Below, piece after piece: positions 2,106-44,862 of a stretch of DNA of 64,000 bases. The stretch spans positions 23,210,063-23,274,062 of the forward strand of contig NC_092565.1 of NCBI RefSeq assembly GCF_037975245.1, in the 5' to 3' direction. The notes beneath the pieces are model-generated. The model worked only from the letters and a program-made list of their open reading frames with translations. It was not told the DNA's origin and did no database searches. How positions within the stretch are numbered: position 1 is the stretch's first letter; the number at the start of each line of letters is the position of its first letter. Source of the stretch: Apostichopus japonicus. Its lineage: Eukaryota. The translations under genes were made by a program, and so were the position numbers.

Positions 2106-2156
2106 ACAACTAATGAAGAGCATGATGAAGTACCTCAGGAGGAAATGAATACTATG
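2106..2156 (+). CDS. 51-nt cassette exon copy 2
   Basis: Identical exon and splice context in the next repeat unit. Confidence 0.45.
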
Positions 2157-6081: not shown

Positions 6082-6150
6082 AGCCGCATTCATAATCATG
6101 GTCGCTAAAAATGAATCTAAGAGACTGACTTCGATCAGCTTTGCGGCTTT

Positions 6151-8973: not shown

Positions 8974-9024
8974 ACAACTAATGAAGAGCATGATGAAGTA
9001 CCTCAGGAGGAAATGAATACTATG
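8974..9024 (+). CDS. 51-nt cassette exon copy 3
   Basis: Identical exon and splice context. Confidence 0.45.
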
Positions 9025-10300: not shown

Positions 10301-10351
10301 ACAACTAATGAAGAGCATGATGAAGTACCTCAGGAGGAAATGAATACTATG
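10301..10351 (+). CDS. 51-nt cassette exon copy 4
   Basis: Identical exon and splice context. Confidence 0.45.
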
Positions 10352-11627: not shown

Positions 11628-11678
11628 ACAACTAATGAAGAGCATGATGAAGTACCTCAGGAGGAAATGAATACTATG
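11628..11678 (+). CDS. 51-nt cassette exon copy 5
   Basis: Identical exon and splice context. Confidence 0.45.
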
Positions 11679-12564
11679 GTATGTACCATAATATTTTGGT
11701 AAATTAATTTAAGACAATAATTATAGGTATGGGTATTAAACTATACAAGCTAGAATACACAATAGATGTAATCTATATACCCTAAGAATATAAAATATAA
11801 CAGAATATAAATCCCTCATATAACAGGTGAAAATATTCTACTGAACCCGTCCCATACCAAGCAGTTTTGAGGCTGCGAAACAAAGGATCGACCAGAAATA
11901 TAGAAATAGCATAGTCTGAAGCAGTATCTATACGCTGTGTCAGCTATGATGATTTTCACACACATGATTCAGTGCATGGTACATTCAATTGTTGGTCAGA
12001 ATCGGGACATACATACAGTCAAATGTGGTGCAAACTGTAGATTTGCATTGTTTCACACAGATGATTTGAGGATGGATACTTTTGTGGGGCTATGGTAAAT
12101 TTCACAAACATGATTCAATAAGCCCTAGTACATCTTTTAATTAAATTGTATCTAAACAACGTTAGTTGTGGTAGCTGCATGATAACTATATTACGCTATC
12201 GTGTATTGGTCAGTCAAGACATTTAGGGCAGAGGTGCCATTCAGAAGCTGTGTATCCCACTTTGTCATCACAGGGTTCCTAGATCAAGCTACTGTCAGAC
12301 TATACAGTAGGTTAATCCTCTTCAGCCATTGATGAGCATATATGGCCTAATACGGGGGAAATGTTCCATCAGATAAGGAAGGCAATTGGTGGTCCCCTGA
12401 ACCGAGTGGTAATAATATTGATAATACACTCCTGTATGGATGCCAATTGTGTGGAAATTCTTGATCATTTTAATAACACACCCCAATATAGACAGGTCCT
12501 AAATCTCTAAGCATTATATTTATTTCAATCAAGATCAATAATTCACTGATTGTACTTTTTGCAG

Positions 12565-12615
12565 ACAACTAATGAAGAGCATGTTGAAGTGCCTCAGGAG
12601 GAAATGAATACTATG
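12565..12615 (+). CDS. 51-nt cassette exon copy 6 (variant HVEVP: GAT>GTT, GTA>GTG)
   Basis: Same context. Point variants keep the frame open. Confidence 0.4.
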
Positions 12616-13429
12616 GTATGTACCATAATATTTTGGTAAATTAATTTAAGACAATAATTATAGGTATGGGTATTAAACTATACAAGCTAGAATACACAAT
12701 AGATGTAATCTATATACCCTAAGAATATAAAATATAACAGAATATGCATATTGAATCCCTCATATAACAGGTGAAAATATTCTACTGAACCCGTCCCATA
12801 CCAAGCAGTTTTGATGATTTTCACACACATGATTTAGTGCATGGTACATTCAATTGTTGGTCAGAATCGGGACATACATACAGTCAAATGTGGTGCAAAC
12901 TGTAGATTTGCATTGTTTCACACAGATGATTTGACCATGGATACTTTTGTGGGGCTATGGTAAATTTCACAAACATGATTCAATAAGCCCTAGTACAATT
13001 TTTTTTAAATTGTATCTAAACAACGTCAGTTGTGGTAGCTGCATGTTAACTATATTACGCTATCATGTATTGGTCAGTCAAGACATTTAGGGCAGAGGTG
13101 CCATTCAGAAGCTGTGTATCCCACTTTGTCATCACAAGGTTCCTAGATCAAACTACTGTCAGACTATACCGTAGGTTAAAATTCTCTCCAGCTATGCATT
13201 GAACATATGGCCTCATACGGGGGAAAGGCTCCATCAGATAAAGAATATTGCATTGGTGGTCCCAGGAACAGAGCGGTAATTATTGATATTGTACACACCA
13301 TGTATGGATGCCAATTGTTACATTCTTGATCATTTTAAGAACACATCCCAATAAAGACAGGTCCTAAATCTCTAAGCATTATATTTCTTTCAATCAAGAT
13401 CAATAATTCACTGATTGTACCTTTTGCAG

Positions 13430-13480
13430 ACAACTAATGAAGAGCAGGATGAAGTACCTCAGGAGGAAATGAATACTATG
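13430..13480 (+). CDS. 51-nt cassette exon copy 7 (variant CAT>CAG, H>Q)
   Basis: Same context in a more diverged unit. Confidence 0.4.
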
Positions 13481-14364
13481 GTATGTACTAAAATATTTTG
13501 GTAAATTAATTTAGACAATAATTATAGGCATTGGTATTATACTATATACAAGCTAGAATACACAATATATATACCATAAAAATATAAAATATATCAGAAT
13601 GGGCATATTGAATCCCTCATATAGAACAGGTGAAAATATTCTACTGAACCTGTTCCATACCAAGCAGTTTTGAGGCTGTGAAACAAAGGATCGACCAGAA
13701 ATATAGAAATAGCATAGTCTGAAGCAGTATCTATACGCTGTGTCAGCTATGATGATTTTCACACACATGATTCAGTGCATGGTACATTCAATTGTTGGTC
13801 AGAATCGGGACATACATACAGTCAAATGTGGTGCAAACTGTAGATTTGCATTGTTTCACACAGATGATTTGACCATGGATACTTTTGTGGGGCTGTGGTA
13901 AATTTCACAAACATGATTCAATAAGCCCTAGTACACCTTTTTTTTTAAATTGTATCTAAACAACGTTAGTTGTGGTAGCTGCATGTTAACTATATTACGC
14001 TATCGTGTATTGGTCAGTCAAGACATTTAGGGCAGAGGTGCCATTCAGAAGCTGTGTATCCCACTTTGTCATCACAAGGTTCCTAGATCAAGCTACTGTC
14101 AGACTATACAGTAGGTTAATCCTCTTCAGCCATTGATGAGCATATATGGCCTAATACGGGGGAAATGTTCCATCAGATAAGGCAATTGGTGGTCCCCGGA
14201 ACCGAGTGGTAATTATATTGATAATACACTCCTGTATGGATGCCAATTGTGTGGAAATTCTTGATCATTTTAATAACACACCCCAATATAGACAGGTCCT
14301 AAATCTCTAAGCATTATATTTATTTCAATCAAGATCAATAATTCACTGATTGTACTTTTTGCAG

Positions 14365-14415
14365 ACAACTAATGAAGAGCATGATGAAGTGCCTCAGGAG
14401 GAAATGAATACTATG
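14365..14415 (+). CDS. 51-nt cassette exon copy 8 (silent GTA>GTG)
   Basis: Same context. Confidence 0.4.
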
Positions 14416-15710: not shown

Positions 15711-15747
15711 GAAACTGCATGCAAATCAACATCAGTCTCATTCACAG
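15711..15747 (+). CDS. Small exon (ETACKSTSVSFT+G)
   Basis: cttgttttag|GAAACTGC...TTCACAG|gtgagt. Phase chaining with the next exons leaves a single continuous open frame. Confidence 0.4.
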
Positions 15748-15871
15748 GTGAGTTTTATTGTGTTCAATCCGAACAAATTGTTTTAAATACTTTTAGAGCC
15801 ATTTTACTTTTATTGAACTCACTAATTTTTATCAGTTCTGTAAACTGCAAACTTCATTTTCACTCTTTCAG

Positions 15872-15931
15872 AATCCCCAAATGGTGCATTATATTTTGAT
15901 GCTGATCTGAGAAAATACCATCATTCACTTG
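15872..15931 (+). CDS. 60-nt exon (ESPNGALYFDADLRKYHHSL)
   Basis: cactctttcag|AATCCCC...CACTTG|gtaagtg. Only the +2 frame is open, which fits a phase-1 join from 15747. Confidence 0.45.
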
Positions 15932-16146
15932 GTAAGTGAAACAGCATTTAAATAGCCTTTTAATTGTTACCTATTAATTAACAAGTTTTCTTTATGTATT
16001 CTGTTAGATATTTTATGCTATATATATTTCATTATATTTTGATGCCGATCTGAGAAAAATGAAGCCTTTGGACTATTAATTTTTAATGAGAACACTCTCT
16101 TCATTGTCTTTATGACTTATCGATTTTCATTTTTAAATTGCCACAG

Positions 16147-16206
16147 ATAACAACCCCAATGAGCCTGTGTTTTTGGATGAAATGACAGGGAATATGTACT
16201 CATATG
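16147..16206 (+). CDS. 60-nt exon (DNNPNEPVFLDEMTGNMYSY), paralogous in length and periodicity to 15872-15931
   Basis: ccacag|ATAACAACC...CATATG|gtgagtt. Only one frame is open. Confidence 0.45.
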
Positions 16207-16421
16207 GTGAGTTAAATTGACATGTTACCTGAATGTTTATTTAACCGACTGAATGCAAAAGTAACATTTTTGAATTTCTGTAATTACAAAATATTAAGAT
16301 ATTTCAGATATTTTTAGATATTGCTCTATCATGCCTATTTGGTATTGGCTAAACTTATTTACTGTAATAGGAATAGATGTATAATATCCAAAACTTAAAC
16401 AATTATTCTTCATTTCAACAG

Positions 16422-16447
16422 ATATTTGTACTGTATCCTGCCAAGAG
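16422..16447 (+). CDS. 26-nt exon (DICTVSCQE) that restores phase 0
   Basis: catttcaacag|ATATTTG...CAAGAG|gtaaag. Confidence 0.35.
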
Positions 16448-17603
16448 GTAAAGTATATACAATTCTAATTTCCAGGGAAGAAATATTACCAAAATAAATT
16501 TTGTAGTATATTCTTAGCTATTCTTGTCTATGAAAGGAGGTGGTCATTGAAGCATAACATAACCAAAAATAAAAATGTTACTTCCAATTTAACTTTCATG
16601 TACGGAACATGTAAATTCACATGGTAAAATCAATACATGTTTTTTACAATTCAAATCGTGATTTTGGAACATATTCCACAGGCTTGTTTTGGTAAAAACT
16701 TCATCACATGAGTTATAAGGATTTGGAGAAGTTAACTTGAATAAATCCTAACTAAATGTTTTGACTCTGCTCCCACCCCCTCCCCCCTCCACAAAAAAAA
16801 GAGGAAAAAAATAATACATTGCCATATATACAGCATCTCAACAAAAATGTGCTAAATTCATTTCCCCATAGGAATCCTACAATTTTTATCAGTAATATGA
16901 TACTAACATCAGAGGAAAATATTTAAAATTGGAATCTGTCAATTCATGATCATAGAAAAATAGGTTTTGTATCGAAATACACAAGAGATCAAAATAAGCA
17001 GATTTGTAGTAAATGCCCAAAGCTGTACATTCTAAGATTTGGCAGATACAGTATGTGCACGTTGTTGGTACAAACCATCAAAATGTGCTATAATGTACTT
17101 ATGTATATGTTTCTGAAATACACACTGATTAACTATCAATGTATGCATGATATAACATGCATGTCATACCAATTATCTTTGAGGTGTAAGAAACATACTT
17201 TTCCCAAATTCCATGTGGTTTCTTGTTCCACAGCAGAACCACACAACAAGTAAATTTGAAAGAGTATAACTGCTTCCAATCCTGGAGTTTCATTAACAAA
17301 GTATATATATATAAATTTATAAGTTCCTTCAATTTTGCTCTTCAAATAGTAAAATGCTATCAGTTAAACTAAATGCAGCATTGCCTATTCTTTGATTCTA
17401 TTTGTCCAGTAACAAACTGTTCTTCCTATAACAAATGATATGCAAAAAGTGTTAATAGTTACCCTAGGCCTGTATGCATTGCATCTATTGAATCCTTTGA
17501 AATACCAAAGGAGTATGTGCTGTAAATTTGCAAAAATGGCATAGAAATATTGTAGTTGATCACAGTTTAATTTTAGTATTAAATCAATTTATTTGATTTA
17601 CAG

Positions 17604-17660
17604 GAGTATCCTGAACTTCAACCAGTATTTGATAAAATGATGCAGCAAATAGAAGAACAG
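17604..17660 (+). CDS. 57-nt exon (EYPELQPVFDKMMQQIEEQ)
   Basis: tttgatttacag|GAGTATCC...GAACAG|gtaaac. Phase 0. Confidence 0.45.
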
Positions 17661-18114: not shown

Positions 18115-18165
18115 ACATCTGATGATGATAGTGACAAAGCTATCTACGAAGAAAATGATTCCAAG
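18115..18165 (+). CDS. 51-nt acidic exon copy 1 (TSDDDSDKAIYEENDSK)
   Basis: cttcttgcag|ACATCTGATGATGATAGTGAC...GATTCCAAG|gtatgtac. Same length and phase as the upstream TTNEEHDEV cassette. Confidence 0.5.
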
Positions 18166-18387
18166 GTATGTACAGTACTACCCTTGCAGTTACAGTAATT
18201 ATTTCAAACCACACTTTTTCAAAAAACAATTGAGTCTCCTATTCCAGTTACAATGCAGATAAATAAATGGAATGGAAATATCACTTGAACAATATGTATT
18301 GCAGCTGTCACCTGGAGAGTTATATATTGTATATCAACAATGAATTTATATATGGTTTATTGATTCACTTTATTCTACTTCTTGCAG

Positions 18388-18438
18388 ACATCTGATGATG
18401 ATAATGACAAAGCTATCTACGAAGAAAATGATTCCAAG
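18388..18438 (+). CDS. 51-nt acidic exon copy 2 (TSDDDNDKAIYEENDSK)
   Basis: Tandem duplicate with the same splice context. Confidence 0.5.
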
Positions 18439-18655
18439 GTATGTACAGTACTACCCTTGCAATTAATTATTTCAAACCACACTTTTTCAAAAAACAATTG
18501 AGTCTCCTATTCCAGTTACAATGCAGATAAATAAATGGAATGGAAATATCACTTGAACAATATGTATTGCAGCTGTCACCTGGAGAGTTATATATTGTAT
18601 ATCAACAATGAATTTATATATGGTTTATTGATTCACTTTATTTTACTTCTTGCAG

Positions 18656-18706
18656 ACATCTGATGATGATAATGACAAAGCTATCTATGAAGAAAATGAT
18701 TCCAAG
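18656..18706 (+). CDS. 51-nt acidic exon copy 3
   Basis: Tandem duplicate with the same splice context. Confidence 0.5.
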
Positions 18707-19477
18707 GTATGTACAGTACTACCCTTGCAGTTAATTATTTCAAACCACACTTTTTCAAAAAAACAATTGAGTCTCCTATTCCAGTTACAATGCAGATAAA
18801 TAAATGGAATGGAAATATCACTTGAACAATATGTATTGCAGCTGTCACCTAGAGAGATTCAAAAACTTACTGGTTTGGATATTTACGAGTGACGAGCTTA
18901 CCTGTCTCCTCACAACCTTAGCACCTCATTCTACCGTGCCTATAAAGTCCTGGTAAAATAATAACACTGTGCGCCCTCTATGACCGAACCCCCCCTCGGT
19001 CACTCCTCACTACTCATGAGACCACTCCTTAAAAGTGGCCTCACGGTCACCGAAATAGGGGTGGCCAGAATCCTCTGGCCACCCCCAAGGACTCCCGTCG
19101 ACTAAACTTCTCAAAGGTGAGCCCTTAACAAAAGGCACTGATGCCTTCCTAGCAGGGAGAGTGTAATCCTCCCCGCCGCAGCGGGTAAGGGGGGGGGGGA
19201 CACTCTCCTGAGCCCTGCAGGCGAAACTACCCCTTTTTCCTAACAAGGAGCCTCATCCTGTAAAGGCCCAACACTTGCTAACCCTAAGACAACTTAGGTG
19301 AGTACGCCTATGAAAAACACAGGGTGCAAAGTTACCCTCACCGATAGACCTGGCCGGTGACTCTTAGTAGTTGTTGGCTCTGTCTATCTGGTGTTGTGCT
19401 TGGAGTCGTGAGCCTAGTCGAACGACTGCTCCCCCGTCCGGCTGTGTCCCACCCCCTCGGGGGAGGGAGGCGGGAAT

Positions 19478-19575
19478 GGAGACAGGTAAGCTCGTCACTC
19501 GTAAATATCCAAACCAGTAAGTTTTGGAATATTTACTTCGCTCCTCGCTTACCTGTCTCCTCACAACCTTAGCAC
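19478..19575. repeat. Internal complementary region (ICR) of the DIRS-like element
   Basis: ggagacaggtaagctcgtcactcgtaaatatccaaaccagtaagtttt is the reverse complement of 18868-18909. ggaatatttacttcgctcctcgcttacctgtctcctcacaaccttagcac is the reverse complement of 25081-25130. Confidence 0.6.
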
Positions 19576-21573
19576 CGAGTGGCACTGCCCGATGGTGGGA
19601 GGCCCGAGGGGTGGGACCAAGTACCAACCGGCTACCACCGCGCTACCAAAAGCTGCCTCGGCGTGTAGAGTGTCAGGTAAGTAACAGGCGACGAACGTAG
19701 TTGGTGTTTTCCACGCTGCCACCTTGAGGATGTCCTGTATCGGGATACCGGCAGAGAGAGCTGTGGAAGCCGAGGCCCCACTGATGTTGTGATCTCTTGG
19801 CCGGGTATCCCCCCATCGTGAACGGGCGGATCATCTCTACTAGCCATCGGGATAGGGTATCCTTGGCGGCTGCTGTTTAAGGTGGTCGTGGCAGGATGAA
19901 AAGGGAGGTTGTTTGTCTCAACTTCTCTGTCCTGTTTAAGTACCACTTCAGTGCCCTGACTGGGCACCATCGCTTGTCCTCAGCCACTGATGAAAGGGTT
20001 TTGATTTCCGGAAAGAAAATGTCCCCGGGCAAGAAAGTCAAGGCCCGGTTCTTGGCAATAAGGGACGGGTCTGGAACTGTCCTCGCCCCATGGCCCTCGA
20101 ATCTGATGTGGTTCTGTTTGGTTGTTAGGGCTTGGAGGTAACTCCTTCACGCTGACGCTACCGCAATGACGAAGAGTGTTTTCTTTGTAAGAGCAGCCAG
20201 GGAAACGTTCCCCGACGATTCGTACAGCGGCCCTGCCAGGGCATGCAGCACTGCTGAGAGCCCCGCAGAGGGGGCTAACTGTCTGACTCGTGGACGGCGA
20301 TGAGCCATGCCTTTGGTGAGCTGGTCAATGTCTGGGTTAATGCCCAGCGTGGAGCCGTCTGGAAAACCAGACGTCCCCGTCTGGGGCCTGTGTGTGGGAC
20401 CTGCGGCCTGGGACCCGGGGTCCGGAGGGAGCCACTAGGATGAGTTTACCCTTGGAGCTGCGAATCTTCCTCAGTATCTGGCTGATCATGCCAAAGGGGG
20501 GGGGGGAAGAATTTAAACCTCTGGTCCGTCTCAAGGCAGGGACCTGGCGCTATGTGGGAGGCTGCAGGTGGGACCGCCTGTTACAAAAGATGGGCAGCCC
20601 ATTGTTGCCCTTTGTCGTAAGCAGGTCTATCAGAGGTATGCCGAACATGTGGAAAAACCTACCGCATGTTCCTTGCGAAGGGTTTACTCGTCGGGGTCGA
20701 GTTGTCCCCTGGGCAGAGCATCGGCCCTCACACTCTCCTTTCTGGCTATATGGGAGACCCATAGGGCCGTGCCAGATTCTGCAGCTGTGGTGACGGTCTC
20801 CCATGCCAGACGGCACAATCTCTCTGCCCTGGAGTCCTGAGAGCGAGGCGGAAGTACATGAAACCTGGTTATCTTTGCAAATAGAGTGTTGGGGCCGATC
20901 CTTTGCCCTGCTGACGCCACTGTGGTGCAGGAAAGTGGTTTCTCTGTATATGCTGCTAAAGAAGTCAAGGACAGTGGCCTGTATGATAACCTTGTTAGCG
21001 CCTGCAGTACAGCAGCACTCGCAGTACTGCTTGCATTACCACAGTACCGCTGATGACCCCTTTAGTTATCAACCAGTTGCAATCAGAAAACCTCTGAAGA
21101 AAAGTAATGCCTTGATGATGTAGACCTAAGCTGTACCCTGTAGGGAGGTTTAATGGAGGTTCTTTCCATGAAAAATAATATTAATAATAATATTGAGGGT
21201 TGAACTGCGCCGGCCTATCTATCGATAACGAAGCCAGAGGCGCTAGCAATATTACCCTGGTCAACAATAACCTGTTAAACAGAGAGAAATCCCTCCTGGA
21301 TGGAAAGACGCAATGGAGATAAAGTGCCTTGCCCAAGGAAACAACAGAATGATCTGGCCAGGACTAAAACCTGCAAGCCTTAGATCACCAGTACACTGCC
21401 TACACCGCTTGACCACAGTGCTCTCCAAAAATTGAGTACTGAATGGATAGTTTGCTTCATCAGAGTCTTAATCAATGCTACAGCTGCTATGTGGCTTTTA
21501 CAACTACAGTATATGTATGTATTTGTGTATGTAATTTAGATCATCCTGCAAGTAGGAACTTGTGAAGAAGCCT

Positions 21574-21761
21574 CATTGGCTTATCAAAGCCGCAAGCTGA
21601 CCAAAGTCAGTCTCGTACATTCATATTTTAATGTCCATGACTATGAATTGTCAACAGCTCTGTAACTGGACAACATACATTAATCTTGGGGTGACTTGAA
21701 CCGGGGACCTTTTGATTGGAAGGCACCGGGTTTAACCACTGAGCTAACTAAGCTACAGCCC
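21574..21761 (-). mobile_element. Full-length tRNA-derived SINE (minus strand), nested in the DIRS-like element
   Basis: Minus-strand 5' head gggctgtagcttagttagctcagtggttaaacccggtgccttccaatcaaaaggtccccggttcaagtcacc carries A-box-like (TAGCTCAGTGG) and B-box-like (GGTTCAAGTC) sequences. Its 3' end cannot pair with its 5' end as an acceptor stem, so it is not a functional tRNA. Its body and tail match the 5887 and 6151 copies. Confidence 0.6.
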
Positions 21762-22052
21762 TACTCACCAGGAACAAACTCCCAACAGGGGATGTGTAGG
21801 GTGGGTTTGTAGAAATTCCACCTCATAAATCCTGGCTGTTTAACGGAGTCCAGGGAGTGACTCAGCAAACACAAAGGCGTTACTAAATGTTTAGTCTTTT
21901 GCTATGATAGCGTTATTAGAGGTGTAAGAAATATGTTACCGAAACCCTTTAGGGGCTATTATTTCAAAACAATTTCCGTTAAGACATTAATATAACATTA
22001 ATATAACGTAATATCTCATAGACATCTTATGTCAACGTTTTATCAACACCAC

Positions 22053-24290
22053 ATTTAACGTAATAAACACGTATTGAATGTTATGATAACGTACCCGTTA
22101 CTTCTCAAATCTCTTCCTGTCGAGATGTGTCCATTTCGTAGTGCAGTAAAGGTATCCAGCTTCCTATTGAAACCACCTAGCGCCTAGGCTAGTCAAGACT
22201 AGGCCATCAGGTGCTACGAAATGCAACTCTGCTTAAGATGTCGGAACATCGAACATTGTTCATAAAGCGCATGCTGTATGTTCGGAGCGTGTTAGCGCTT
22301 GTAACTTGCTGGGGTTGTATCCTACCCCTTTTTCAACTTACTAACGCGTTTGTCTTGGTAATTCACCAAAGAAATAGGAAGAAAGGCTTATTCCATAGGA
22401 TCGCTCACGTAGTCGATAGCTCGTTGCAGTAAAAGTTGAGCTTACACGTGTCAAGCCAGGTGGCTGCTTGGCCCCCCCCTCCTCTCTTAACAAATGTGCC
22501 ACGTTGTACCTTTTTTTCTGGCAGTTTGCCAAGGATCTATGAGCGTTATGTTTCCTGGCACTTTGCCAAGTCTCGAGAAAGTTCTCTTCCTAGCAGTTTG
22601 CCAAGGTTTTAAAGTAAACGGAATACTGTAAGTCATGAGAACCGATTTAAAACCCCTCAGTCTTACGCATTTTAACATGTTCTGGAAGTGGGTTCACCAG
22701 TGTTTTAAACGACAGTGTTTTTAAACACAAGTAAGATTTTAACCTAGGCAAATGGCGATGAATTATGATTAGAGAGGAGTATAATTAGCGAGGAGAATAT
22801 GACCCATGAGTGTCTGCAGGTACTCGATAAATAAACACACATTTGGGATGTGTAGTGGTAGCGGTGTTTTTCCGCAAATGATTCGAACCTGTCGTCGCCG
22901 CTCAAGCTGCTAGTTCCGGGAGGGGGACACTCCCCCTATTCTGGGAAGCGGGAGTAACCGTCCTCTGTAACCCCGAAATCTAGGGGTCGACCTCGTCGTC
23001 TAGGCCGGACAGGTTGCCCGACGCTCTGCAAACCAGGTCGTCCTTGCCGGGGAACAAATCAGGTTCCATTCTTTGGTCTGGGATTGATCGTGGTGTCGCG
23101 GCCGGGCTGGCCGTGGGTTGCGATCGCTCCTCGGCACCGATGTCTGTGTTCGGTGTCTGGGGATAAGTATTTCTCCCTTTGCCGTGGGAACCTGGCTCGG
23201 GGCTGGTTCTCTTTTCGGATTGGGCGCTTGCCCCTGCTACCCCGTTCTGGGGGCCCGGCATTGGTAATCTCGTCGGTTCCCGGCCTCAGGACCGGCCGCG
23301 GCTCCGGTTAGGGGGTCTGCGGGCCGGGCTTCTGCACCTGCTACCCCATTCTGGGGGCCTAGCAGTTGTTAATCTCGTTGTAAATGTTGTTGTAGTTGTA
23401 AATGTTATTGTAAATGTCGCAGTTGTAAATGTTGTTACTCTCGTAGGCTCCCGACTTCGGGACCAGTTTTGGATCCCGTTTGGAGATCTGCGGACCGGGC
23501 TTCTGCCCCTGCGCCCCCGTTCTCGTCGGGCCCGGGCCCTCCGGAGCCAATCTCTGAGGACCCAGCAGTCGATTGTATAGCTCTGGTTCCCGGCTCCGGG
23601 GGCGGTCTCGGATCTGGAGTGAAAACTCGGTTCTGCCTTCCCTTCGAGTCTCGCCGGACCCGGGGTCTCGCCGGACCCGGGGCCTCGCCGGACCCAGGCT
23701 CCCGGAGCCCGTCTCTGTGTGCGTACCACGCCGGGTACCACCACGCCGGTATTCCTCGACCCGGACATTCTGTCCTTTCCGGTGGGATTTTTTTTTTTTT
23801 TTTTTTTTCTCGCCGGACCCGGGCTCCCCGGAGCCTGCTATGGGACCGGCTCCGTTTCAGCGACCCCTCGGTCGTACTCTCTCTCTCGGACCCGAGCTCT
23901 CCGTGGCCTGTAGCCCGCGCTCCATGGGTCTCTCTTGCTGCGACCCGGACTGAGACGTTGCCTCTAGCCCGGCCGAGCCGTGCCTCTTCTCAAGAGGTCT
24001 TTTCTTGGCAGGAGCCTTGCTCCTGCCCTTCCCTCTGGCCGTAATCAACCGGACGTCGCCGGGACCGTTAGGGGTACTCTTTCTCTCTCTCTCCACCTCT
24101 CCTTCGGCCCTCTCCTGGCCACTTTCCTCCACCTCTCTCACCACTTCTCCCTCCTCCTCTCTCTCTCTCTCTTGTCTCTCCTATATCTTTTTCTGGGGCA
24201 CCGATGGCCTAAGGAATCAAGTCCAGCCTGCCCTAAAGCTTGCTTCTTAGACTCGTAAGCCACTGGTCTATCTAGTGCCACTGGGCTGGC
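22053..24290. repeat. Unclassified dispersed repeat X, copy 1 (inside the DIRS-like element)
   Basis: Collinear with 33805-35300: acatttaacgtaa..tgaatgttatgataacgtacccgttac..; the tandem motif tggcagtttgccaagg; the tract gctagttccggg...ccgtgggaacct.gctcgggc..ggtt; and a CT-rich 3' tract. Internal (GCCGGACCCGGGG)n repeats, a T21 run at 23783-23803 and an A11 run at 24395-24408. Confidence 0.6.
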
Positions 24291-25186
24291 GAAAAATTTA
24301 TGCAGACCAGGCATGGGTCCCGTCTGGTGTAGGTTCTACACTTAGGACACAAATCGTGTTCGACCCAGGTTCTGCCTGGCCGAAACATCGAAAGTTAAAA
24401 AAAAAAACTTCAGCTGGTTACGAGACAAACTAAAACGCCCGAATTAAGGAAAGACTAACTCTTAAGCTTACGGAAAAATGCAAACTAGCAAGAGAACGGG
24501 AGAGAACGGGAGGTACATAACGGTGAGTAGAGGTACGTAGCGTAACCTAGCAACGGCAAAATACGAAAAACGCTATGAAGTGGCCTAACAAAATCAACAC
24601 AAGCTGAAAAAGAACATGAGAGAGCGAAATATAGAAGAAGAAATCGTGAATAGAAATACAATGTAGACATGCTATGAACATGAAAATACAACGACACGCC
24701 TATAGCGTGGGGAAGGGAAATTGGCGGGAAACCTAGGCAGTTCGCGGAACTGCTACCCCCGCAAAAAACCTAAGGGCGGAAACGCACTAGGAATAAAAAC
24801 AGTCCCCAAAACCCTCCCTTTCAACAAAAAAGGATACTTATCGGGCTGGAAAGGACTGCAATACTCCTAAGAATCCGAGGAAAGAAACTTCCAAAGATCG
24901 CTAAAGAAAACCAAGACGAAATCCAAGGGAAATATATCCACAAGAAATTCACGTGAAGACACTTTTAATGGTAGAATGAGTAGTGAGGAGTGACCGAGGG
25001 GGGGGGAGGGGTTCGGTCATAGAGGGCGCACAGTGTTATTATTTTACCAGGACTTTATAGGCACGGTAGAATGAGGTGCTAAGGTTGTGAGGAGACAGGT
25101 AAGCGAGGAGCGAAGTAAATTTCTATATTGTATATCAACAATGAATTTATATGGTTTATTGATTCACTTTATTCTACTTCTTGCAG

Positions 25187-25237
25187 ACATCTGATGATGA
25201 TAATGACAAAGCTATCTATGAAGAAAATGATTCCAAG
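25187..25237 (+). CDS. 51-nt acidic exon copy 4, lying to the right of the DIRS-like insertion
   Basis: Identical to copy 3. The unit is separated from the array by the 6.3-kb insertion. Confidence 0.5.
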
Positions 25238-26481: not shown

Positions 26482-27503
26482 GTGTAGTGGTTAGTAACCA
26501 GCATTTATTCCATTTTAGCACAAAACATACACAAGATTAACCAAATATCATATTTACTCTAATTGCATAGATTTAGCATACAGTCTCCTACTATATGACA
26601 GTCTGTATACAATATTTATGTGAGTGCGCAACTTAATTTAGTGAGGTGCAAATTGACCAATCAGCATTTGCGACACCCACAATAGGATTTCACTCCACAA
26701 AAATCTACACATGAATTAACAAATTGACAAATTAATAGCATTTCTCCATAGCGTTAGATTGTAGTTCAATCAAATAAGTTTTTTGCGGGCTGCAATTAAT
26801 TCACACAAAAAGTTTGTGTTTTCAGAATTAAATTTGATTAGAAAATCTTTGAAACAGTGGCCCCATCAGAGCAAACATGTCCCAACGATTGGTACCTTGA
26901 CACCTGTTTTTACTACAAAGCAAAAACAACAACACACGGAGTGTTTACGTTCAGTCACAGTTGTTAAACAATAACAGGAATTCATGTTCTTGGTAACGAC
27001 ATATGACATGGCAGTTTGTCGCAATCAGGGATGTTCTTGGCCCCTAACTATAGTCACTTTACATGTACCTGATTTGCAAATCAATATTAACATAGTCCTA
27101 ATACATGCACATGGTTTTGTGTTTGTCTTAGCCCAGTGGCACTTCTATTAGATTGAATATGGCATTTGCCACTTTTAAAAAAACATGCATAAAGTTACTG
27201 ATGGACATTTTTTTCAAAGCTAACAAAATAACTAGATTATTGCACTACAGTTGGTATTCTAAGACTGTCATGCCAAAAAGTAAGATATTATATACCGATT
27301 CCCTAGAAACTCTATGGAAAGCAGTGGCGGATCCAGGATTTCTGAAACGAGGGGCCCTCTTAATTTTCGCAAGGGGGTGGGGGGACCCGCTGGTCCTGCC
27401 CTTGGAAAGTTATGCATAGCTTGCCATTTGAGATGCATTATACAGTACATGTAGTTCAAGGAAATTCTGTATTTGTATTAAATTTTCATGTCTTTTTACA
27501 TTA

Positions 27504-27551
27504 GATTCCAAAAAGGCTAAGGAAACTTAGACAATTAAGAAGCTACTCTAA
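27504..27551 (+). CDS. Candidate terminal exon of the acidic-repeat gene (IPKRLRKLRQLRKLL, stop TAA at 27549-27551)
   Basis: Strong polypyrimidine tract and AG (tttcatgtctttttacattag|) at 27483-27503. A phase-0 join from the 51-nt exons gives a short basic tail and then a stop. All three frames hit stops before 27538. Confidence 0.35.
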
Positions 27552-29742
27552 AGATGATGCTGTCGAAAGTGATTTTGTACCATTTGATGAAGAAAGCGAC
27601 ACCTCTTCAGAAGAAGATGCTAACACATCAGATGAAGGCTATGCTGCTGATGAGAATCAACCCAGTACTAGTAATAAGGTATGTGTATTATCAACAGAGT
27701 ACACTGCCCCAGAGGAAAAATCAAAAAGAGCTTGGAACAGACAACACTACTGCATCTACTGTGAGAAAACTGTTCTACAAATAGCACGACATTTCAAAAC
27801 TCATCATTTTGATGAATCATTGGTGATTAAGGCCTTAAATGAACCTAAAAAGTCAAAGGAACGAAATGCCATTTTTGAAGAATTAAGAAAAAAGGGGGAC
27901 CATGCCCACAATATAAAAGTCTTCAAAGAAGGAAAAGGTCAACTTTTGGTGTATAAAAGACCACAAATGGGGCTACTGGATGCAGAGGATTTCATTCCTT
28001 GTCCAGATTGTCACGGATATTTTGCAAAAAGATCTCTCTGGAGACACCAGAAAAATTGCACCTCAGAATCTAAAAATGAAAGTAAACAAACCTTGGGCCT
28101 TCGGAGAGCTGCCAGAGTACTGCTTCCCACAAAGGCAGACTGCAGTTCAAAACTGCAGAACATACTTGCAGGTATGAAGGCTGACAATATTGTATTAACA
28201 ATACGTGCAGATCCTTGGTTATGCAAATTGGGGGAACACTACATCAATGACAGCCCAAATGCACACTACATTGTATCAGATAGGATGAGATCTGTTGCAC
28301 GTCTTCTTCTCGAGACCCAAAAGCTAAATTGTGCCATAAAATCAGCTAAAGATTTAGTAAATCCATGCCATTTTGATAATGTAATTTCAGGTGTGAAGGG
28401 CTGCTGTGGGTTTGACGATGCATCGCAAATGTTTGCCACACCATCATTGGCTAAAAAGCTAGGTCAAAGCTTAAATGTGCTGGCAGATATAAGTATTGCA
28501 GAAGCAATAAAAGCTGCAGATGCTTCACAAGAGAACATGGCCGAGCAATTCTTAAAGCTTAAGAAATTGCAGTGGAACAAGAAAATTGCCACTAAAATCT
28601 ACAAACAGCAAAGCAAACAAAAGTGGCAAAAGCCCCCTAAAATACCACTAACAGCTGATACTGTGAAATTGTATCAACTATTATCATGTAACATAAAAGA
28701 GACAAAAGAAAGTTTGAAAACAGAGGTAACAACATCGCTATGGAGGGAGTTGGCCTCACTAACTCTTACACAACTGATAATGTTTAACAGACGTCGACCT
28801 GGGGAAACCCAGAATCTTAAACTGGAAGATTACAAACAACAAACAGGGCAAAAAAAAGACTTTCAAGATGAGATATATGATTCACTTCCAGTAGCACAAA
28901 AAATTGCCTCAAAAAGGCTAAGCCTAATAATGACAAGGGGTAAGCGAGACCGCGGTGTTCCAGTAATGCTAACCCCCAACATGAAAGATTCAATAGAAAT
29001 ACTGAACAACACTAGGGAACTTGCTGGTGTTGATCCCCAAAACCCTTACATCTTTGCATGCCCATCAGGGGAGTCTCTACAGCCTCTTCGTGGATATGAT
29101 TGCCTGCATAAATATGCACAACAGTGTGGGGCTCAAAATCCTGAACGCCTTACAGCCACAAATATGAGGAAGCATCTTGCTACATTGTCACAAATTTTGA
29201 ATCTTTCAGAATCAGAATTAGAACAACTGGCTAATCACTTGGGGCATAATATCAGTGTTCACAAAGAATACTACCGCCTTCCACAAGATGTGATATTTCT
29301 TGCGAAAGTCAGCAAACTGTTACTTACTGCTGAAAAGGGCCATATTCATAAGTATCAAGGAAAAGCTTTGGCAGATTTTGAAATAGATAATAAAGAACTC
29401 TTGTCAGATAGAGAAATGTCTGATGAGAATGAAAGTGAGATAGATGAAGTTGAAACTCAAGAAATACCTGATAGCCAGGCTCATACAACTGTCAATACAA
29501 AATACAAAAAGAGAGTAATATCCTCAAGAACAAAATGGAGTAAACATGAAGAAACGGCTGTCATGAATGACCCACAGCTTAAGAAAGCCATCAAAACCAT
29601 GCATCCTCCTGCATACAAAGCATGTCATGATGCAAGAGAAAACAATGCCTGTTTGCAAAATAGGTCAATTACACAAATCAAATCCAAAGTTTGGAACATT
29701 ATACAGAAAAAATCTAAAGCACAGTTACAAAAGGAGCATTAG
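27538..29742 (+). CDS. Crypton-like tyrosine recombinase ORF (734 codons, stop-to-stop). Domains in order: acidic N-terminal stretch, two C2H2/C2HC-like zinc fingers, YR N-terminal and catalytic domains, and a C-terminal Myb/SANT-like tail.
   Basis: Uninterrupted frame from 27538 to TAG at 29740-29742. Zinc finger 1 is HYCIYCEKTVLQIARHFKTHH; zinc finger 2 is CPDCHGYFAKRSLWRHQKNC. YR box I is LIMFNRRRPGETQNLKLEDY. A beta-hairpin Lys in IMTRGKRDRGVPV. Box II is NMRKHLATL...LANHLGHNISVHKEYYRL (His and Tyr nucleophile). C-terminal tail RTKWSKHEETAVMNDP...RSITQIKSKVWNII. The first in-frame ATG is at ~27966, after zinc finger 1, so the true 5' end is probably an upstream or spliced exon. Confidence 0.7.
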   Translation, partial: RSYSKDDAVESDFVPFDEESDTSSEEDANTSDEGYAADENQPSTSNKVCVLSTEYTAPEEKSKRAWNRQHYCIYCEKTVLQIARHFKTHHFDESLVIKALNEPKKSKERNAIFEELRKKGDHAHNIKVFKEGKGQLLVYKRPQMGLLDAEDFIPCPDCHGYFAKRSLWRHQKNCTSESKNESKQTLGLRRAARVLLPTKADCSSKLQNILAGMKADNIVLTIRADPWLCKLGEHYINDSPNAHYIVSDRMRSVARLLLETQKLNCAIKSAKDLVNPCHFDNVISGVKGCCGFDDASQMFATPSLAKKLGQSLNVLADISIAEAIKAADASQENMAEQFLKLKKLQWNKKIATKIYKQQSKQKWQKPPKIPLTADTVKLYQLLSCNIKETKESLKTEVTTSLWRELASLTLTQLIMFNRRRPGETQNLKLEDYKQQTGQKKDFQDEIYDSLPVAQKIASKRLSLIMTRGKRDRGVPVMLTPNMKDSIEILNNTRELAGVDPQNPYIFACPSGESLQPLRGYDCLHKYAQQCGAQNPERLTATNMRKHLATLSQILNLSESELEQLANHLGHNISVHKEYYRLPQDVIFLAKVSKLLLTAEKGHIHKYQGKALADFEIDNKELLSDREMSDENESEIDEVETQEIPDSQAHTTVNTKYKKRVISSRTKWSKHEETAVMNDPQLKKAIKTMHPPAYKACHDARENNACLQNRSITQIKSKVWNIIQKKSKAQLQKEH

Positions 29743-43215: not shown

Positions 43216-43225
43216 CACAATGAAA

Positions 43226-43275: not shown

Positions 43276-44716
43276 ATGCCAAATTGACCAAAGAAGGTTT
43301 TGAGCAAACTACTCTCTTCCACTTGAAAATGCCACATTAACCAATGCACTAATATAAGAGAGGGAACACGGGAAAAGTTTCGCGCGCTCCGCGCACGTAT
43401 AGCACAGTATTTAGAGTACGATGGAAATGAACTTGACAAATGTGATACGGGGAGTCAGCCTAGTCAGGTATGTTTTAATTCCTCGCTTGCCCGATGGTAA
43501 TACTCCAGATTCTTTGCACCAAGGTGTGTCATACAGCTCCCCACCCACCAAGACTGACACGCCCTCCCAAATTGGTCAAATGGTAGGCAGTATCCACTCT
43601 CTCTGGCTGATCATTTGGGAAATATCGCGCAATTCAGTCCAATATAACGTATGCGTTCCCGCGGGCAAATATGGTATATCCCAAAAAATTCTGTACGCAT
43701 AGGTACACCATGGGTATGTATACCCACCTCATGACCCAAAGATGAAAAACTGAATAAATATATAAATGACATGAGCCGTCAGGGAAGTTTGTTGTTATTT
43801 TGGGCTCAGACGTGCATTCAGAATCCCCTCAATTTTTGTTTTCAGCTCAACTCAACATATATCACTTCCGCCATATGCACAACGTGCATGAAAATTCTCT
43901 GGCTATGCGCCCCATGTGTCAATAGTGTCTATTAGAAACTATTCCCAATAAGTTATTAGAAGGGGGGGGGGGGGGGAACGATGGTTGAGTTGCGGTGATA
44001 AATAGGTCGAGGTTACGGGCTTGGACGTGAAATGCATCTCAAGGGGATAGGATGCCGATTGCCGTAACTAATATGGTAAAATATATATAAAATTTAATAA
44101 TGTTAACCCACAAAGACTGCATATTTCAGGGAAAATTAAGAGTGGCAAAAGTTTATCTAAATGCCACCATTTTACATGTAGGCACTACTGGGATTCAAAA
44201 AAAATTCAAAAGGGGAGGGTGTCACACCATCCCCTTATACTCCTCCCTCAGGCCACAATTCAGTGGCGCCCACCTGGTCGACTGCCCCCTAGATCCGCCC
44301 TTGGAGTTAGGGGTTTGGAATTGTAATTTTTTACCCTGTTTTAGCAGCCTCTATGATATGGAAATATAATATAAGGTTAGGGTATAAATTATGGTTAGGA
44401 TTGATATGCAAGAACAAATTAAAATAACTTCTGGGTACAGAATCTAGTACCAAAAACAGTTCAGAGTACTGAAAGTCCTACATACACGGGGAATCACACA
44501 CACTGACAATTGTGGAGCATCCAAATTGAGCTCAGGTATTTGACAAAAACACAGTTGTGGGGCATGGTAAAATTAGAGGGCGTTTTGAAAAAGTTTGGTT
44601 ATTCCATAACTCACACTAAAAAACATTATGTAAATTCACTTCTAGGTCAAACTATCAATTGCTTTAAATTAACTCCTTAATGATATTTGATAATTTTAAT
44701 GTGGAATAGGCAAAAA

Positions 44717-44740
44717 CAGTTGTGGGGCGCCCCACAACTG
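44717..44740. repeat. Perfect 24-bp palindrome CAGTTGTGGGGCGCCCCACAACTG. Related half-sites lie at 44497, 44551 and 44795.
   Basis: Direct reading. The half-site motif acagttgtgggg / ccccacaa recurs four times within 320 bp. Confidence 0.7.
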
Positions 44741-44816
44741 CAGGTTACACAAAAATCGGATCAACAATTGAATGTGTGTGTCAGTTCTGCTGCCCCACAA
44801 TGGTGTGGCATGTAAG

Positions 44817-44862
44817 AACACACATACATACATACATACATACATACACACACACACACGCC
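44817..44862. repeat. Microsatellite (CATA)n(CA)n
   Basis: acacacatacatacatacatacatacatacacacacacacacg. Confidence 0.85.

What the first reader, a model, noticed from the sequence alone, without database searches (positions are those of the whole stretch)
27490..27830. The recombinase ORF has no start codon and runs in frame out of an acidic, host-gene-like exon sequence. This may be a fusion or a spliced 5' exon.
The YR frame is open for 94 codons upstream of the first zinc finger, back to a TAA at 27535-27537. It has no in-frame ATG, GTG or TTG; the ORF caller only starts at TTG 27820. That upstream stretch (ESYSKDDAVESDFVPFDEESDTSSEEDANTSDEGYAADENQPSTSNK) has the same D/E/S-rich composition as the 17-aa exons of the neighbouring + strand gene. 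It also ends in AAG|gtatgtg, the same donor context those exons use (CCAAG|gtatgtac), yet the frame reads straight through that 'donor' into zinc finger 1. The predicted host acceptor at 27503 enters this region in a different phase and terminates after 15 basic codons. This leaves two readings. The recombinase may be expressed as a C-terminal extension or alternative isoform of the acidic-repeat gene, through a non-canonical acceptor or a read-through isoform. Alternatively it may obtain its start from an unrecognised upstream exon. A long stop-free upstream extension in AT-rich DNA is unlikely by chance (roughly 1% for 90 codons).
Basis: seen in the sequence. Interest (0 to 1): 0.65.

Follow-up and report, generated by a model that had tools for sequence, protein, structure and literature searches.

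The report
Last exon of a SET-recombinase transposon gene
The start-less recombinase reading frame is the last exon of a many-exon sea cucumber gene that joins a histone-methyltransferase-like SET domain to a tyrosine recombinase, and that gene appears to belong to a very large, multi-copy mobile element that inserts next to CA-type microsatellites.

Summary
The frame really has no start codon, but the puzzle comes from one misread codon. Codon 27535-27537 is TTA (Leu), not TAA. The frame is open for 105 codons back to TAG 27502-27504, and the AG of that TAG is a canonical splice acceptor. The upstream 51-nt cassette exons are phase 0/0, so they join in frame (...ENDSK|IPKRLRK...). Every listed RefSeq model of Apostichopus japonicus shows this junction.

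The SET + variable repeat linker + YR layout is conserved in a 61%-identical paralogue with the same intron position. It also occurs in teleosts and frogs, so this is not a recent capture by a host gene.

Copies are multi-copy and near-identical across chromosomes. Two copies share 99% DNA identity including introns. Three subfamilies share a conserved 3' end that abuts CA-type microsatellites (window about 44818). One copy interrupts a repeat at its (CA)n tract.

Best reading: a giant Crypton-like (CryptonV-like) transposon whose own gene is a SET-YR fusion. Transcripts and mobility were not tested directly.

The parts
27483..27504 (+). 3' end of the last intron: polypyrimidine tract and canonical acceptor (tttcatgtctttttacattAG). 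The AG is part of the in-frame TAG 27502-27504 that closes the frame upstream.
   Evidence: Sequence. The same position and phase occur in paralogue L001 (ttgcttctAG|GTTCCAAAAAGG). The junction ENDSK|IPKRL is in all listed RefSeq isoforms.
27505..29742 (+). Terminal coding exon (745 codons plus stop TAG 29740-29742) of the SET-YR gene. It has no start codon of its own; the first in-frame ATG is at 27967.
   Evidence: It is 100% identical to residues 273-1017 of P0001 (XP_071828561).
27505..27552 (+). Basic motif IPKRLRKLRQLRSYSK at the exon start. It looks like a nuclear localisation signal (inference). It corresponds to VPKRLKHL in family B and to VPKLRRTKS-type motifs in fish.
27553..27680 (+). 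Acidic, predicted-disordered stretch carrying the family-wide motif (here SDFVPFDEESDTSSEED).
   Evidence: pLDDT is below 50 for residues 1-58. The motif is conserved in oyster, fish and frog proteins. dN/dS is about 1 against family B, so composition and motif are kept while sequence is not.
27679..27684 (+). Donor-like GTATGT inside the exon (AAG|GTATGT). It is read through and is most likely a chance match.
   Evidence: It is the only such site in the exon, with 1.4 expected. It is absent in L001. No listed isoform uses it.
27751..27807 (+). Zinc finger 1 (C83, C86, H96, H101).
   Evidence: Nearly invariant in a 55-sequence alignment. pLDDT is above 90. Coordinates.
28000..28059 (+). Zinc finger 2 (C166, C169, H181, C185).
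28087..28734 (+). Helical core-binding-type domain of the recombinase (residues about 195-410).
28735..29340 (+). Tyrosine-recombinase catalytic domain. R431 (28795-97), K480 (28942-44), R555 (29167-69), H581 (29245-47), Y590 (29272-74). Thr552 (29158-60) sits where most YRs have the HxxR histidine.
29530..29739 (+). C-terminal three-helix homeodomain/Myb-like domain (putative DNA binding).
1169..14415 (+). Array of eight 51-nt phase-0 cassette exons (TTNEEHDEVPQEEMNTM type): 1169-1219, 2106-2156, 8974-9024, 10301-10351, 11628-11678, 12565-12615, 13430-13480, 14365-14415. The SET-domain exons and the ATG lie upstream of the window.
   Evidence: tblastn and pattern search with AG/GTATGTAC flanks. 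The last five match the order seen in isoform X1, P0019.
15711..17660 (+). Five unique middle exons: 15711-15747, 15872-15931, 16147-16206, 16422-16447, 17604-17660 (ETACK...MMQQIEEQ).
   Evidence: Exact matches with AG/GT flanks; the concatenated translation equals P0019.
18115..25237 (+). Four 51-nt phase-0 cassette exons (TSDDD(S/N)DKAIYEENDSK): 18115-18165, 18388-18438, 18656-18706, 25187-25237. The last one supplies the donor spliced to 27505.
   Evidence: TRF finds a 268-bp exon+intron unit in 3 copies.
44690..44818 (+). Putative 3' terminus of the mobile element (ends ...GGCATGTAAGAA), with three copies of a CCCACAA..G.A.GG-like subterminal motif.
   Evidence: It aligns with the 3' ends of family B (L001, L002) and family C (L003), with 74% mean column identity. 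The rest of the non-coding DNA does not align between families.
44819..44909 (+). Flank of the element: (CA)(CATA)n(CA)n microsatellite 44819-44859, then the tail of an unrelated interspersed repeat, GCCAACCTGACTGCATAGGTTCC...AAAAAGT, at 44860-44909.
   Evidence: The same tail follows the L001 copy, and it occurs uninterrupted in a repeat copy at L002 380-540.

Best explanation
**What 27505-29742 is.** It is the 3'-terminal coding exon of a long multi-exon gene of Apostichopus japonicus.
- Translation starts in SET-domain exons upstream of the window (MYNLRCRRQ..., KMT5A-like).
- The transcript is spliced through arrays of 51-nt phase-0 cassette exons. Their inclusion varies, which gives linkers of different length.
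- It then passes through five unique exons and a second cassette array.
- The last donor (TCCAAG|GTATGT, 25237|25238) is joined to the canonical acceptor at 27504|27505 in phase 0.
- This is why the recombinase frame opens exactly at the acceptor and needs no ATG.

**What the exon encodes.** It supplies a basic motif, an acidic disordered motif, two zinc fingers, a two-domain tyrosine recombinase with an R-K-R-H-Y active site, and a homeodomain/Myb-like domain.

**What the gene belongs to (inferred).** The gene is not a host gene with a captured recombinase. It is the gene of a large DNA transposon of the Crypton kind:
- It is multi-copy.
- It is copied with its introns and several kb of 3' non-coding DNA.
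- It has conserved termini.
- Its ends abut CA-type microsatellites.

**Inferred mechanism.**
- The zinc fingers and C-terminal domain bind the subterminal repeats.
- The YR excises and integrates by strand exchange within the microsatellite shared by element and target.
- The SET domain tethers the recombinase to nucleosomes or modifies them.

**Shown and not shown.** Shown here: the frame, phase and junction; the fold and conserved residues; the conserved architecture; the copy structure and the termini. Inferred only: splicing in vivo, recombinase activity, SET function and current mobility.
For: **Frame and phase**
- TTA at 27535-37, TAG at 27502-04, and no start or stop in the 105 codons between.
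- The cassette exons are phase 0/0 with AG/GT flanks.

**Junction**
- P0001 (1017 aa, NCBI) is 100% identical over all 745 residues.
- It and every other listed isoform from five loci read ENDSK|IPKRL.
- Paralogue family B (61% aa identity) has the same intron position, phase and in-frame TAG at its acceptor.

**Selection**
- dN/dS between families A and B is 0.13 overall and 0.07 in the catalytic domain.

**Fold**
- The AF2 model has pLDDT 83.6.
- Foldseek matches XerH with E 4e-5.

**Conserved residues**
- C2H2 and C2HC zinc fingers, R431, K480, R555, H581 and Y590 are near-invariant in the 55-sequence alignment.

**Family**
- A profile search finds 13,662 representative clusters.
- 30 of the 148 best representatives carry the same SET type, mostly at residues about 20-150.
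- Pfam SET plus a C-terminal YR occurs in Misgurnus, Carassius, Brienomyrus, Alosa and poison frogs.
- These proteins also have tandem-repeat linkers and the acidic motif.
- The SET domain is closest to KMT5A among solved structures.

**Mobility**
- Family A genes lie on contigs of 26.8, 37.5 and 46.0 Mb.
- Family B genes lie on contigs of 21.7, 28.4, 37.5 and 46.0 Mb.
- Proteins within each family are near-identical.
- L001 and L002 are 99.2% identical over 11.35 kb, including introns, and stay alignable to 5.1 kb past the stop. Beyond that the 3' flanks are unrelated.
- The L001 copy (about 855-20295) sits inside the (CA)n tract of a repeat. The two halves of that repeat re-join when aligned to an uninterrupted copy.
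- The 3' termini of families A, B and C align and all abut CA/TG/TA microsatellites.
- CryptonV elements are reported to insert in microsatellites (PMC8869645, citing Repbase Reports 2012).
Against: - No transcript data were available. The junction rests on RefSeq (Gnomon) models plus conservation.
- No Pfam, NCBIfam, PHROG or PDB sequence profile recognises the recombinase.
- The HxxR histidine is Thr/Ser in this family.
- hhalign to a CryptonA recombinase is not significant (E 0.12).
- The element's 5' end is outside the window, and no second family A copy could be fetched. The window's 3' boundary at 44818 therefore rests on homology to families B and C only.
- The 'empty site' is a paralogous repeat copy, not the orthologous locus.
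- The SET domain has Asp where KMT5A has the His of its NH motif, so it may not be an active methyltransferase.
- Identity of the sea cucumber SET to fish and frog fusion SETs (46-48%) is barely above identity to human KMT5A (44%). A single origin of the fusion is therefore not proven.
Confidence: 0.8

Rival explanations
1. It is a domesticated host gene family. An ancient SET-YR fusion is now kept for a host function (chromatin or DNA transactions) and has been multiplied by segmental duplication; it no longer transposes.
For: - There is strong purifying selection between families A and B.
- The gene is intron-rich with many annotated isoforms, which is unusual for an active DNA transposon.
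- Copy number in A. japonicus is low (about 9 loci).
- There is precedent in DUF3504 genes and in the ATF7IP Crypton (PMC3212892).
Against: - Near-identical copies lie on different chromosome-scale contigs.
- Two copies keep 99% DNA identity through introns and 3' non-coding DNA, then the similarity ends abruptly.
- A conserved terminus is shared by three diverged subfamilies while all other non-coding DNA has diverged.
- One copy is inserted into the microsatellite of a repeat.
- Catalytic residues are retained, unlike DUF3504.
- Identical proteins occur at three loci in a frog.
- The family has 13,662 clusters.
Confidence: 0.13
2. It is an annotation artefact. A dead, ATG-less recombinase ORF of an ordinary transposon happens to lie downstream of a host acidic-repeat gene, and the gene predictor has merged the two.
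For: - Gene predictors often attach start-less transposon ORFs to neighbouring genes.
- Other members of this family are annotated as isoforms of rnf214 and lcorl, as a fusion with an ATF7IP binding domain, or under a BRCA1-like name.
- No transcript evidence was seen here.
Against: - The frame opens exactly at a canonical acceptor, in phase with all upstream phase-0 exons.
- The same junction, phase and architecture occur in a paralogue of 61% identity.
- The SET + linker + YR layout recurs in fish and frogs.
- The ORF is intact and under purifying selection.
Confidence: 0.04
3. This is the first reader's mechanism: the recombinase is reached from the acidic-repeat gene only through a non-canonical acceptor or a read-through isoform, or from an unrecognised private 5' exon, because the canonical acceptor leads to a stop.
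For: None after re-reading. It rested on a TAA at 27535-27537.
Against: Codon 27535-37 is TTA. The canonical acceptor at 27504|27505 is in phase 0 and reads through. The annotated proteins use it.
Confidence: 0.01

Closest known systems
Crypton DNA transposons, especially CryptonV (Kapitonov & Jurka 2012, Repbase Reports, as cited in PMC8869645; Crypton groups in PMC3212892)
   Same: - It is a eukaryotic DNA element whose only recombination enzyme is a tyrosine recombinase, with no reverse transcriptase.
- It has no long terminal repeats.
- It is multi-copy.
- Its ends abut microsatellites, as reported for some CryptonV families.
   Different: - The protein is made from a gene of at least 18 exons.
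- It carries an N-terminal KMT5A-like SET domain, a variable cassette-exon linker, two zinc fingers and a C-terminal homeodomain/Myb-like domain.
- The element is very large: 19.4 kb in L001 and more than 44.8 kb in the window.
- It has Thr/Ser at the HxxR histidine.
- No significant sequence match to CryptonA or to DUF3504 was found.
SETMAR (primate SET gene fused to an Hsmar1 mariner transposase exon)
   Same: A SET-domain N-terminus is joined by splicing to a start-less transposase-type terminal exon.
   Different: - SETMAR is a single-copy host gene created by one insertion.
- Its partner is a DDE transposase, and its SET domain is of a different type.
- Here the fusion is multi-copy and conserved across phyla, the partner is a YR, and the fusion appears to be the transposon's own gene.
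- These statements about SETMAR come from general knowledge and were not tested here.
DUF3504 genes (KCTD1, KIAA1958, ZMYM2-4, QRICH1/WOC) and the ATF7IP-intron Crypton (PMC3212892)
   Same: A Crypton-type YR module sits C-terminal to other domains and is reached by splicing. Partners are chromatin or transcription proteins.
   Different: - Those genes are single-copy and orthologous, and most have lost the catalytic residues.
- This one keeps R-K-R-H-Y, is multi-copy, and does not match PF12012.
Chromoviruses (Ty3/gypsy integrases with a chromodomain)
   Same: A mobile-element recombination enzyme is fused to a chromatin module. A chromodomain-bearing member of this YR family exists (P0098).
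   Different: They are a different enzyme class (DDE integrase), are retroelements, and carry a reader domain where this gene has a SET domain. This comparison comes from general knowledge.
KMT5A / SETD8 / PR-Set7 (H4K20 monomethyltransferase)
   Same: It is the best solved-structure match of the SET domain (E 2.5e-25, about 44% identity). The GRG, YxYFF and YDYG motifs are kept.
   Different: The NH motif reads ND in all element-type SETs examined, there is no KMT5A N-terminal region, and the domain is fused to a recombinase.

Membership tests
Tyrosine recombinase / topoisomerase IB superfamily | Two-domain fold (helical core-binding domain plus catalytic domain) | tested here: met
Tyrosine recombinase / topoisomerase IB superfamily | Catalytic Arg-I, Lys, Arg-II, His/Trp-III and Tyr nucleophile | tested here: met
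   R431, K480, R555, H581 and Y590 are near-invariant in 55 family members and are present in the window. The assignment is by motif position; no structural superposition of side chains was made.
Tyrosine recombinase / topoisomerase IB superfamily | Histidine of the HxxR motif | tested here: not met
   The motif is T552-N-M-R555 here and S/T-x-x-R in the family. Topoisomerase IB also lacks this His (general knowledge).
Tyrosine recombinase / topoisomerase IB superfamily | Match to a curated sequence profile (Pfam PF00589 Phage_integrase or similar) | tested here: not met
   There are no Pfam, NCBIfam, PHROG or PDB sequence hits at E<=1. UniRef does name a family B fragment 'Tyr recombinase domain-containing protein' (P0193).
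Crypton DNA transposons | YR is the only recombination enzyme; no reverse transcriptase or RNase H | tested here: met
   No ORF of 110 aa or more between 1 and 44.8 kb has a Pfam hit other than those of the SET-YR gene. Shorter or split ORFs were not examined.
Crypton DNA transposons | Dispersed multi-copy element with shared ends and unrelated flanks | tested here: met
   This was shown directly for family B (L001, L002). For the window's family A copy it was shown only at the 3' end.
Crypton DNA transposons | Sequence affiliation with a described Crypton group (A, F, I, S) or DUF3504 | tested here: not met
   hhalign of the family profile against CryptonA-1_SP YR gives E 0.12. There is no PF12012 hit.
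CryptonV | Insertion in microsatellites | tested here: met
   All four 3' ends examined abut microsatellites: window (CA)(CATA)n(CA)n, L001 (CA)n, L002 (CA)n(TA)n and L003 CA/TG/TA. The L001 5' end abuts (CA)n.
CryptonV | Sequence similarity to CryptonV recombinases | not testable with these tools
   Repbase sequences and the Repbase Reports description are not in the held libraries.
KMT5A-type SET methyltransferase | SET domain present in the gene product | tested here: met
   PF00856 matches with E 1.6e-17 in P0019 residues 34-142. KMT5A is the best PDB match. These exons are upstream of the window; only the protein was seen.
KMT5A-type SET methyltransferase | Intact NH(S/C) cofactor/catalytic motif | tested here: not met
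   The motif is RLVNDD (family A), RLVNDN (family B) and RLVNDE (fish, frog), against RLINHS in KMT5A.
SETMAR-like host gene with a captured transposase exon | Single-copy host locus with one captured transposon | tested here: not met
   There are at least five family A and four family B loci on different contigs, all with the same architecture.
DUF3504-type domesticated Crypton gene | Loss of most catalytic residues; single-copy orthologues | tested here: not met
   The catalytic residues are kept and the gene is multi-copy.

The most novel reading that the evidence does not exclude
This is a widespread, so far undescribed class of giant animal YR transposons with three linked properties.
- The transposase is natively fused to a chromatin module. 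The module is a KMT5A-like SET domain here and in fish and frogs, and a chromodomain, an ATF7IP binding domain or BRCT elsewhere. It would direct or license recombination on nucleosomes.
- Arrays of phase-0 cassette exons generate a variable-length linker.
- The acceptor-led, ATG-less terminal exon acts as a natural gene trap. When it lies in a host intron it yields host-YR chimeras, such as the annotated rnf214, lcorl and BRCA1-like isoforms.
Probability: 0.25. Interest if true: 0.8.

Novelty: new variant of a known kind. Interest (0 to 1): 0.55.

Why it matters
For the finding as stated, the matter is ordinary: the missing start codon is explained by normal splicing.

What lies behind it is less ordinary. 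A recombinase of a mobile element appears to be built as one polypeptide with a histone-methyltransferase-type domain. It is encoded by an intron-rich gene inside an element tens of kilobases long. That layout is conserved from a sea cucumber to fish and frogs.

If the layout is confirmed, it gives:
- a natural system for asking how transposons use chromatin modules to choose or prepare their targets;
- a likely source for the many 'KMT5A-like' and 'uncharacterized' multi-copy genes in fish genome annotations;
- a possible route by which host-recombinase chimeric genes arise.

The conserved termini and the microsatellite target make excision and integration assays straightforward to design.

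Tried and rejected
- **Fetching other copies.** DNA for other family A copies (P0001, P0002, P0019, P0025) and for fish P0016 is not on record. The 5' end and the exact family A termini could not be compared.
- **afdb50 fold library.** It was not available.
- **L002 as a 5'-truncated copy.** I first read L002 this way. The similarity starts exactly at an assembly gap (N at 9888), so this was rejected.
- **The hairpin-containing motif at 44860-44909.**
  - I first considered it a possible element terminus or att-like site.
  - It is the tail of an unrelated interspersed repeat, that is, flanking DNA.
  - Its fold is not exceptional (z -1.1).
- **SET-domain identities.** I used them to test for a single origin of the fusion. 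The result was not decisive: 46-48% to fish and frog SETs against 44% to human KMT5A.
- **Sequence-level placement in Crypton groups.** hhalign was not significant. Pfam, NCBIfam, PHROG and PDB sequence searches were empty.
- **A second word-indexed protein search with the alignment.** It added only three short relatives (P0193-P0195), one of which UniRef names a Tyr recombinase domain protein.
- **Literature.** Searches for SET plus Crypton/YR elements and for 'KMT5A-like' transposons found no description.
- **The internal AAG|GTATGT as a functional donor.** Rejected as chance.

Full report
**1. The observation**

The window is Apostichopus japonicus DNA. The 745-residue translation of 27505-29742 is 100% identical to residues 273-1017 of an NCBI protein, P0001/XP_071828561.

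The recombinase frame does lack any ATG, GTG, TTG or CTG upstream of TTG 27820. The reported stop 'TAA 27535-27537' is a misreading. That codon is TTA (Leu), and the TAA lies at 27536-27538 in another frame.

The AG of the closing TAG is the acceptor of a normal 3' splice site (tctttttacattAG|ATT). The upstream 17-aa exons read cttcttgcAG|ACA TCT ... TCC AAG|GTATGTAC. They are 51 nt and phase 0 at both ends. Splicing any of them to 27505 therefore gives ...ENDSK|IPKRLRKLRQLRSYSKDD... in the recombinase frame.

By local composition, 105 stop-free codons have P about 3e-4. The internal AAG|GTATGT at 27676-27684 is the only donor-like hexamer in the exon, with 1.4 expected. It is absent from the paralogue and is read through in every listed annotated isoform.

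**2. The gene**

Mapping the longest isoform (P0019, 1128 aa) onto the window gives this structure:
- eight TTNEEHDEVPQEEMNTM exons between 1169 and 14415;
- five unique exons between 15711 and 17660;
- four TSDDDNDKAIYEENDSK exons between 18115 and 25237;
- the terminal exon 27505-29742.

All exons have AG/GT borders. The first 148 residues of P0019 are a complete SET domain (Pfam PF00856, E 1.6e-17). Its exons, and the ATG, lie upstream of the window.

Listed isoforms differ only by skipping of cassette exons or of the 17604-17660 exon, or by their predicted start. All share the junction at 27505.

**3. Support for the junction beyond the RefSeq models**

A second subfamily, family B (P0037; genomic locus L001 from the older assembly), is 61% identical in the last exon. 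It has the same order of parts: SET exons, short repeated exons, three unique exons and a 2.2-kb terminal exon. Its acceptor is at the homologous position and phase (ttgcttctAG|GTTCCAAAAAGGCTAAAG), again with an in-frame TAG formed by the acceptor.

Between the two families synonymous sites are saturated. dN/dS is 0.13 overall, 0.14 for the zinc fingers, 0.07 for the catalytic domain and 0.08 for the C-terminal domain. The acidic first 60 residues evolve freely (about 1.0).

**4. What the exon encodes**

An AlphaFold2 model built on a 55-sequence alignment has mean pLDDT 83.6. Residues 1-58 (basic plus acidic) and 638-672 are disordered.

Near-invariant family columns are:
- C83, C86, H96, H101 (zinc finger 1);
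- C166, C169, H181, C185 (zinc finger 2);
- R431, K480, R555, H581, Y590.

The usual HxxR histidine is Thr/Ser. No curated sequence profile sees the domain. UniRef does label one fragment a Tyr recombinase domain protein.

**5. The architecture is family-wide, so this is not a local capture**

A profile search of 1.84 billion representatives finds 13,662 clusters (3,589 at E<=1e-30).

Of the 148 best representatives, 30 carry the same SET type, usually at residues about 20-150 with the recombinase at the C-terminus. Pfam confirms SET in Misgurnus, Carassius, Brienomyrus and Alosa proteins. Names show teleosts, poison frogs, a hemichordate and oyster. Most are called 'uncharacterized', and fragments are called 'KMT5A-like'.

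Fish proteins also have tandem-repeat linkers between SET and the recombinase. All the fish and frog proteins examined have the acidic motif (D/E)(D/E)(Y/F/W)(V/I)P..S(D/E)(D/E)S just before zinc finger 1. Several also have a basic (V/I)PK.LR motif where the sea cucumber exon begins. The 'host-like' acidic stretch at 27553-27680 is therefore part of the recombinase module.

The SET domain is closest to KMT5A among solved structures (E 2.5e-25). All element-type SETs examined read RLVND where KMT5A reads RLINHS.

Other annotated N-terminal partners are a chromodomain, an ATF7IP binding domain, BRCT, rnf214 and lcorl. I cannot tell which of these are real fusions and which are prediction artefacts.

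**6. Evidence that the whole gene is mobile**

Family A genes with near-identical products lie on contigs of 26.8 Mb (three genes), 37.5 Mb and 46.0 Mb. Family B genes lie on contigs of 21.7, 28.4, 37.5 and 46.0 Mb.

Two family B copies (L001, L002) are 99.2% identical over 11.35 kb, including introns. They remain alignable to 5.1 kb beyond the stop codon. There the similarity ends at a (CA)n tract and the downstream flanks are unrelated. The upstream limit in L002 is an assembly gap and says nothing.

In L001 the copy (about 855-20295, 19.4 kb) is bounded by (CA)n on both sides. The DNA to its left (389-852) and right (20294-20354) re-joins into one copy of an interspersed repeat when aligned to an uninterrupted member of that repeat (L002 380-540). 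This is the signature of an insertion into the repeat's microsatellite.

The last about 130 bp before the microsatellite align between family A (window 44690-44818), family B (L001, L002) and a third subfamily, family C (L003). Mean column identity is 74%, with three copies of a CCCACAA..G.A.GG-like motif. Introns and the rest of the 3' region do not align between families.

The L001 5' end carries the same motif in inverted orientation (my reading of the sequence).

I therefore place the 3' end of the window's element at about 44818. It is followed by (CA)(CATA)n(CA)n and, from 44860, by the tail of the same interspersed repeat. On this reading the window holds more than 44.8 kb of one element. 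The length is inflated by two intronic insertions of about 6.5 kb and by a 7.7-kb array of a 204-bp satellite.

**7. Mechanism**

Shown:
- the start-less frame is an in-phase terminal exon;
- it encodes a YR fold with conserved active-site residues and three putative DNA-binding modules;
- the architecture and the termini are conserved.

Inferred:
- the protein is translated from the SET exons;
- the DNA-binding modules recognise the subterminal repeats;
- the YR exchanges strands within CA repeats shared by element and target. Microsatellite targeting is reported for CryptonV (PMC8869645);
- the SET domain tethers the enzyme to nucleosomes or modifies them. Its His-to-Asp change leaves its activity open.

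**8. Relation to known systems**

By definition this is a Crypton-type element: a YR and no reverse transcriptase. In target choice it is closest to CryptonV. It does not match CryptonA or DUF3504 by sequence. Animal Cryptons described in 2011 had no extra domains (PMC3212892).

It resembles SETMAR only in outline. I found no description of a SET-YR element in the held literature. Repbase entries could not be consulted, so 'undescribed' is provisional.

**9. Verdict**

The finding's puzzle is resolved as ordinary splicing after correcting one codon. The object behind it is an unusual, probably mobile, SET-recombinase gene that deserves follow-up.

Noticed in passing
window 35507-43216: A 204-bp satellite with 37.7 copies at 88% identity. 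The repeated 119-aa ORFs listed there are by-products of the repeat. On my reading it lies inside the 3' non-coding part of the element.
   Followed up: partly
window 45615-46277 (-) and 52425-52859 (-): A homeodomain-encoding exon (PF00046, E 2e-20) and a possible upstream exon of an NK-like homeobox gene. Its 3' end is about 700 bp beyond the element's flank.
   Followed up: partly
window 2157-8973 and 18707-25186: Two interruptions of about 6.5 kb in the otherwise regular exon+intron arrays. They include a GC-rich block (19.6-24 kb) whose ORFs resemble those at 34.1-35.3 kb. They also include a repeat shared with L003 8485-8735 (window 5879-6361 and 21509-21748). These are probably nested insertions.
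   Followed up: no
window 1169-14415 and 18041-18856: The cassette exons sit in tandemly duplicated exon+intron units of about 865-1327 bp and 268 bp. Exon sequences are almost identical, which suggests recent unequal crossing-over or gene conversion. Fish relatives have unrelated tandem repeats at the same place in the protein.
   Followed up: partly
related proteins P0098, P0073, P0014, P0016, P0304/P0305: The same recombinase module is annotated behind several partners: a chromodomain (Nerophis), an ATF7IP binding domain (Megalops), BRCT (oyster), lcorl (Pseudorasbora) and rnf214 (Onychostoma). These are either alternative chromatin modules or host-gene trapping by the acceptor-led exon.
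   Followed up: partly
SET domain of P0019/P0037 and fish/frog relatives (encoded upstream of the window): All element-type SET domains examined read RLVND(D/E/N) where KMT5A has RLINHS, so the His of the NH motif is replaced by Asp. Methyltransferase activity may be altered or lost.
   Followed up: partly
L001 13011 (family B terminal exon, codon 11): Family B has an in-frame ATG 10 codons into the terminal exon, and family A has none. A SET-less recombinase could therefore be made only in family B, if at all.
   Followed up: no
L001 16013-17359 / L002 18840-20190: There is an internal tandem duplication of about 690 bp in the 3' non-coding part of the family B element.
   Followed up: no
P0062 residues 225-266, P0052 and P0067 N-termini: Some fish members carry a Mastermind-like (MamL-1) basic helix, such as RIDKLKAHHNRCETRYE, between SET and the acidic motif. 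The sea cucumber copies lack it.
   Followed up: no
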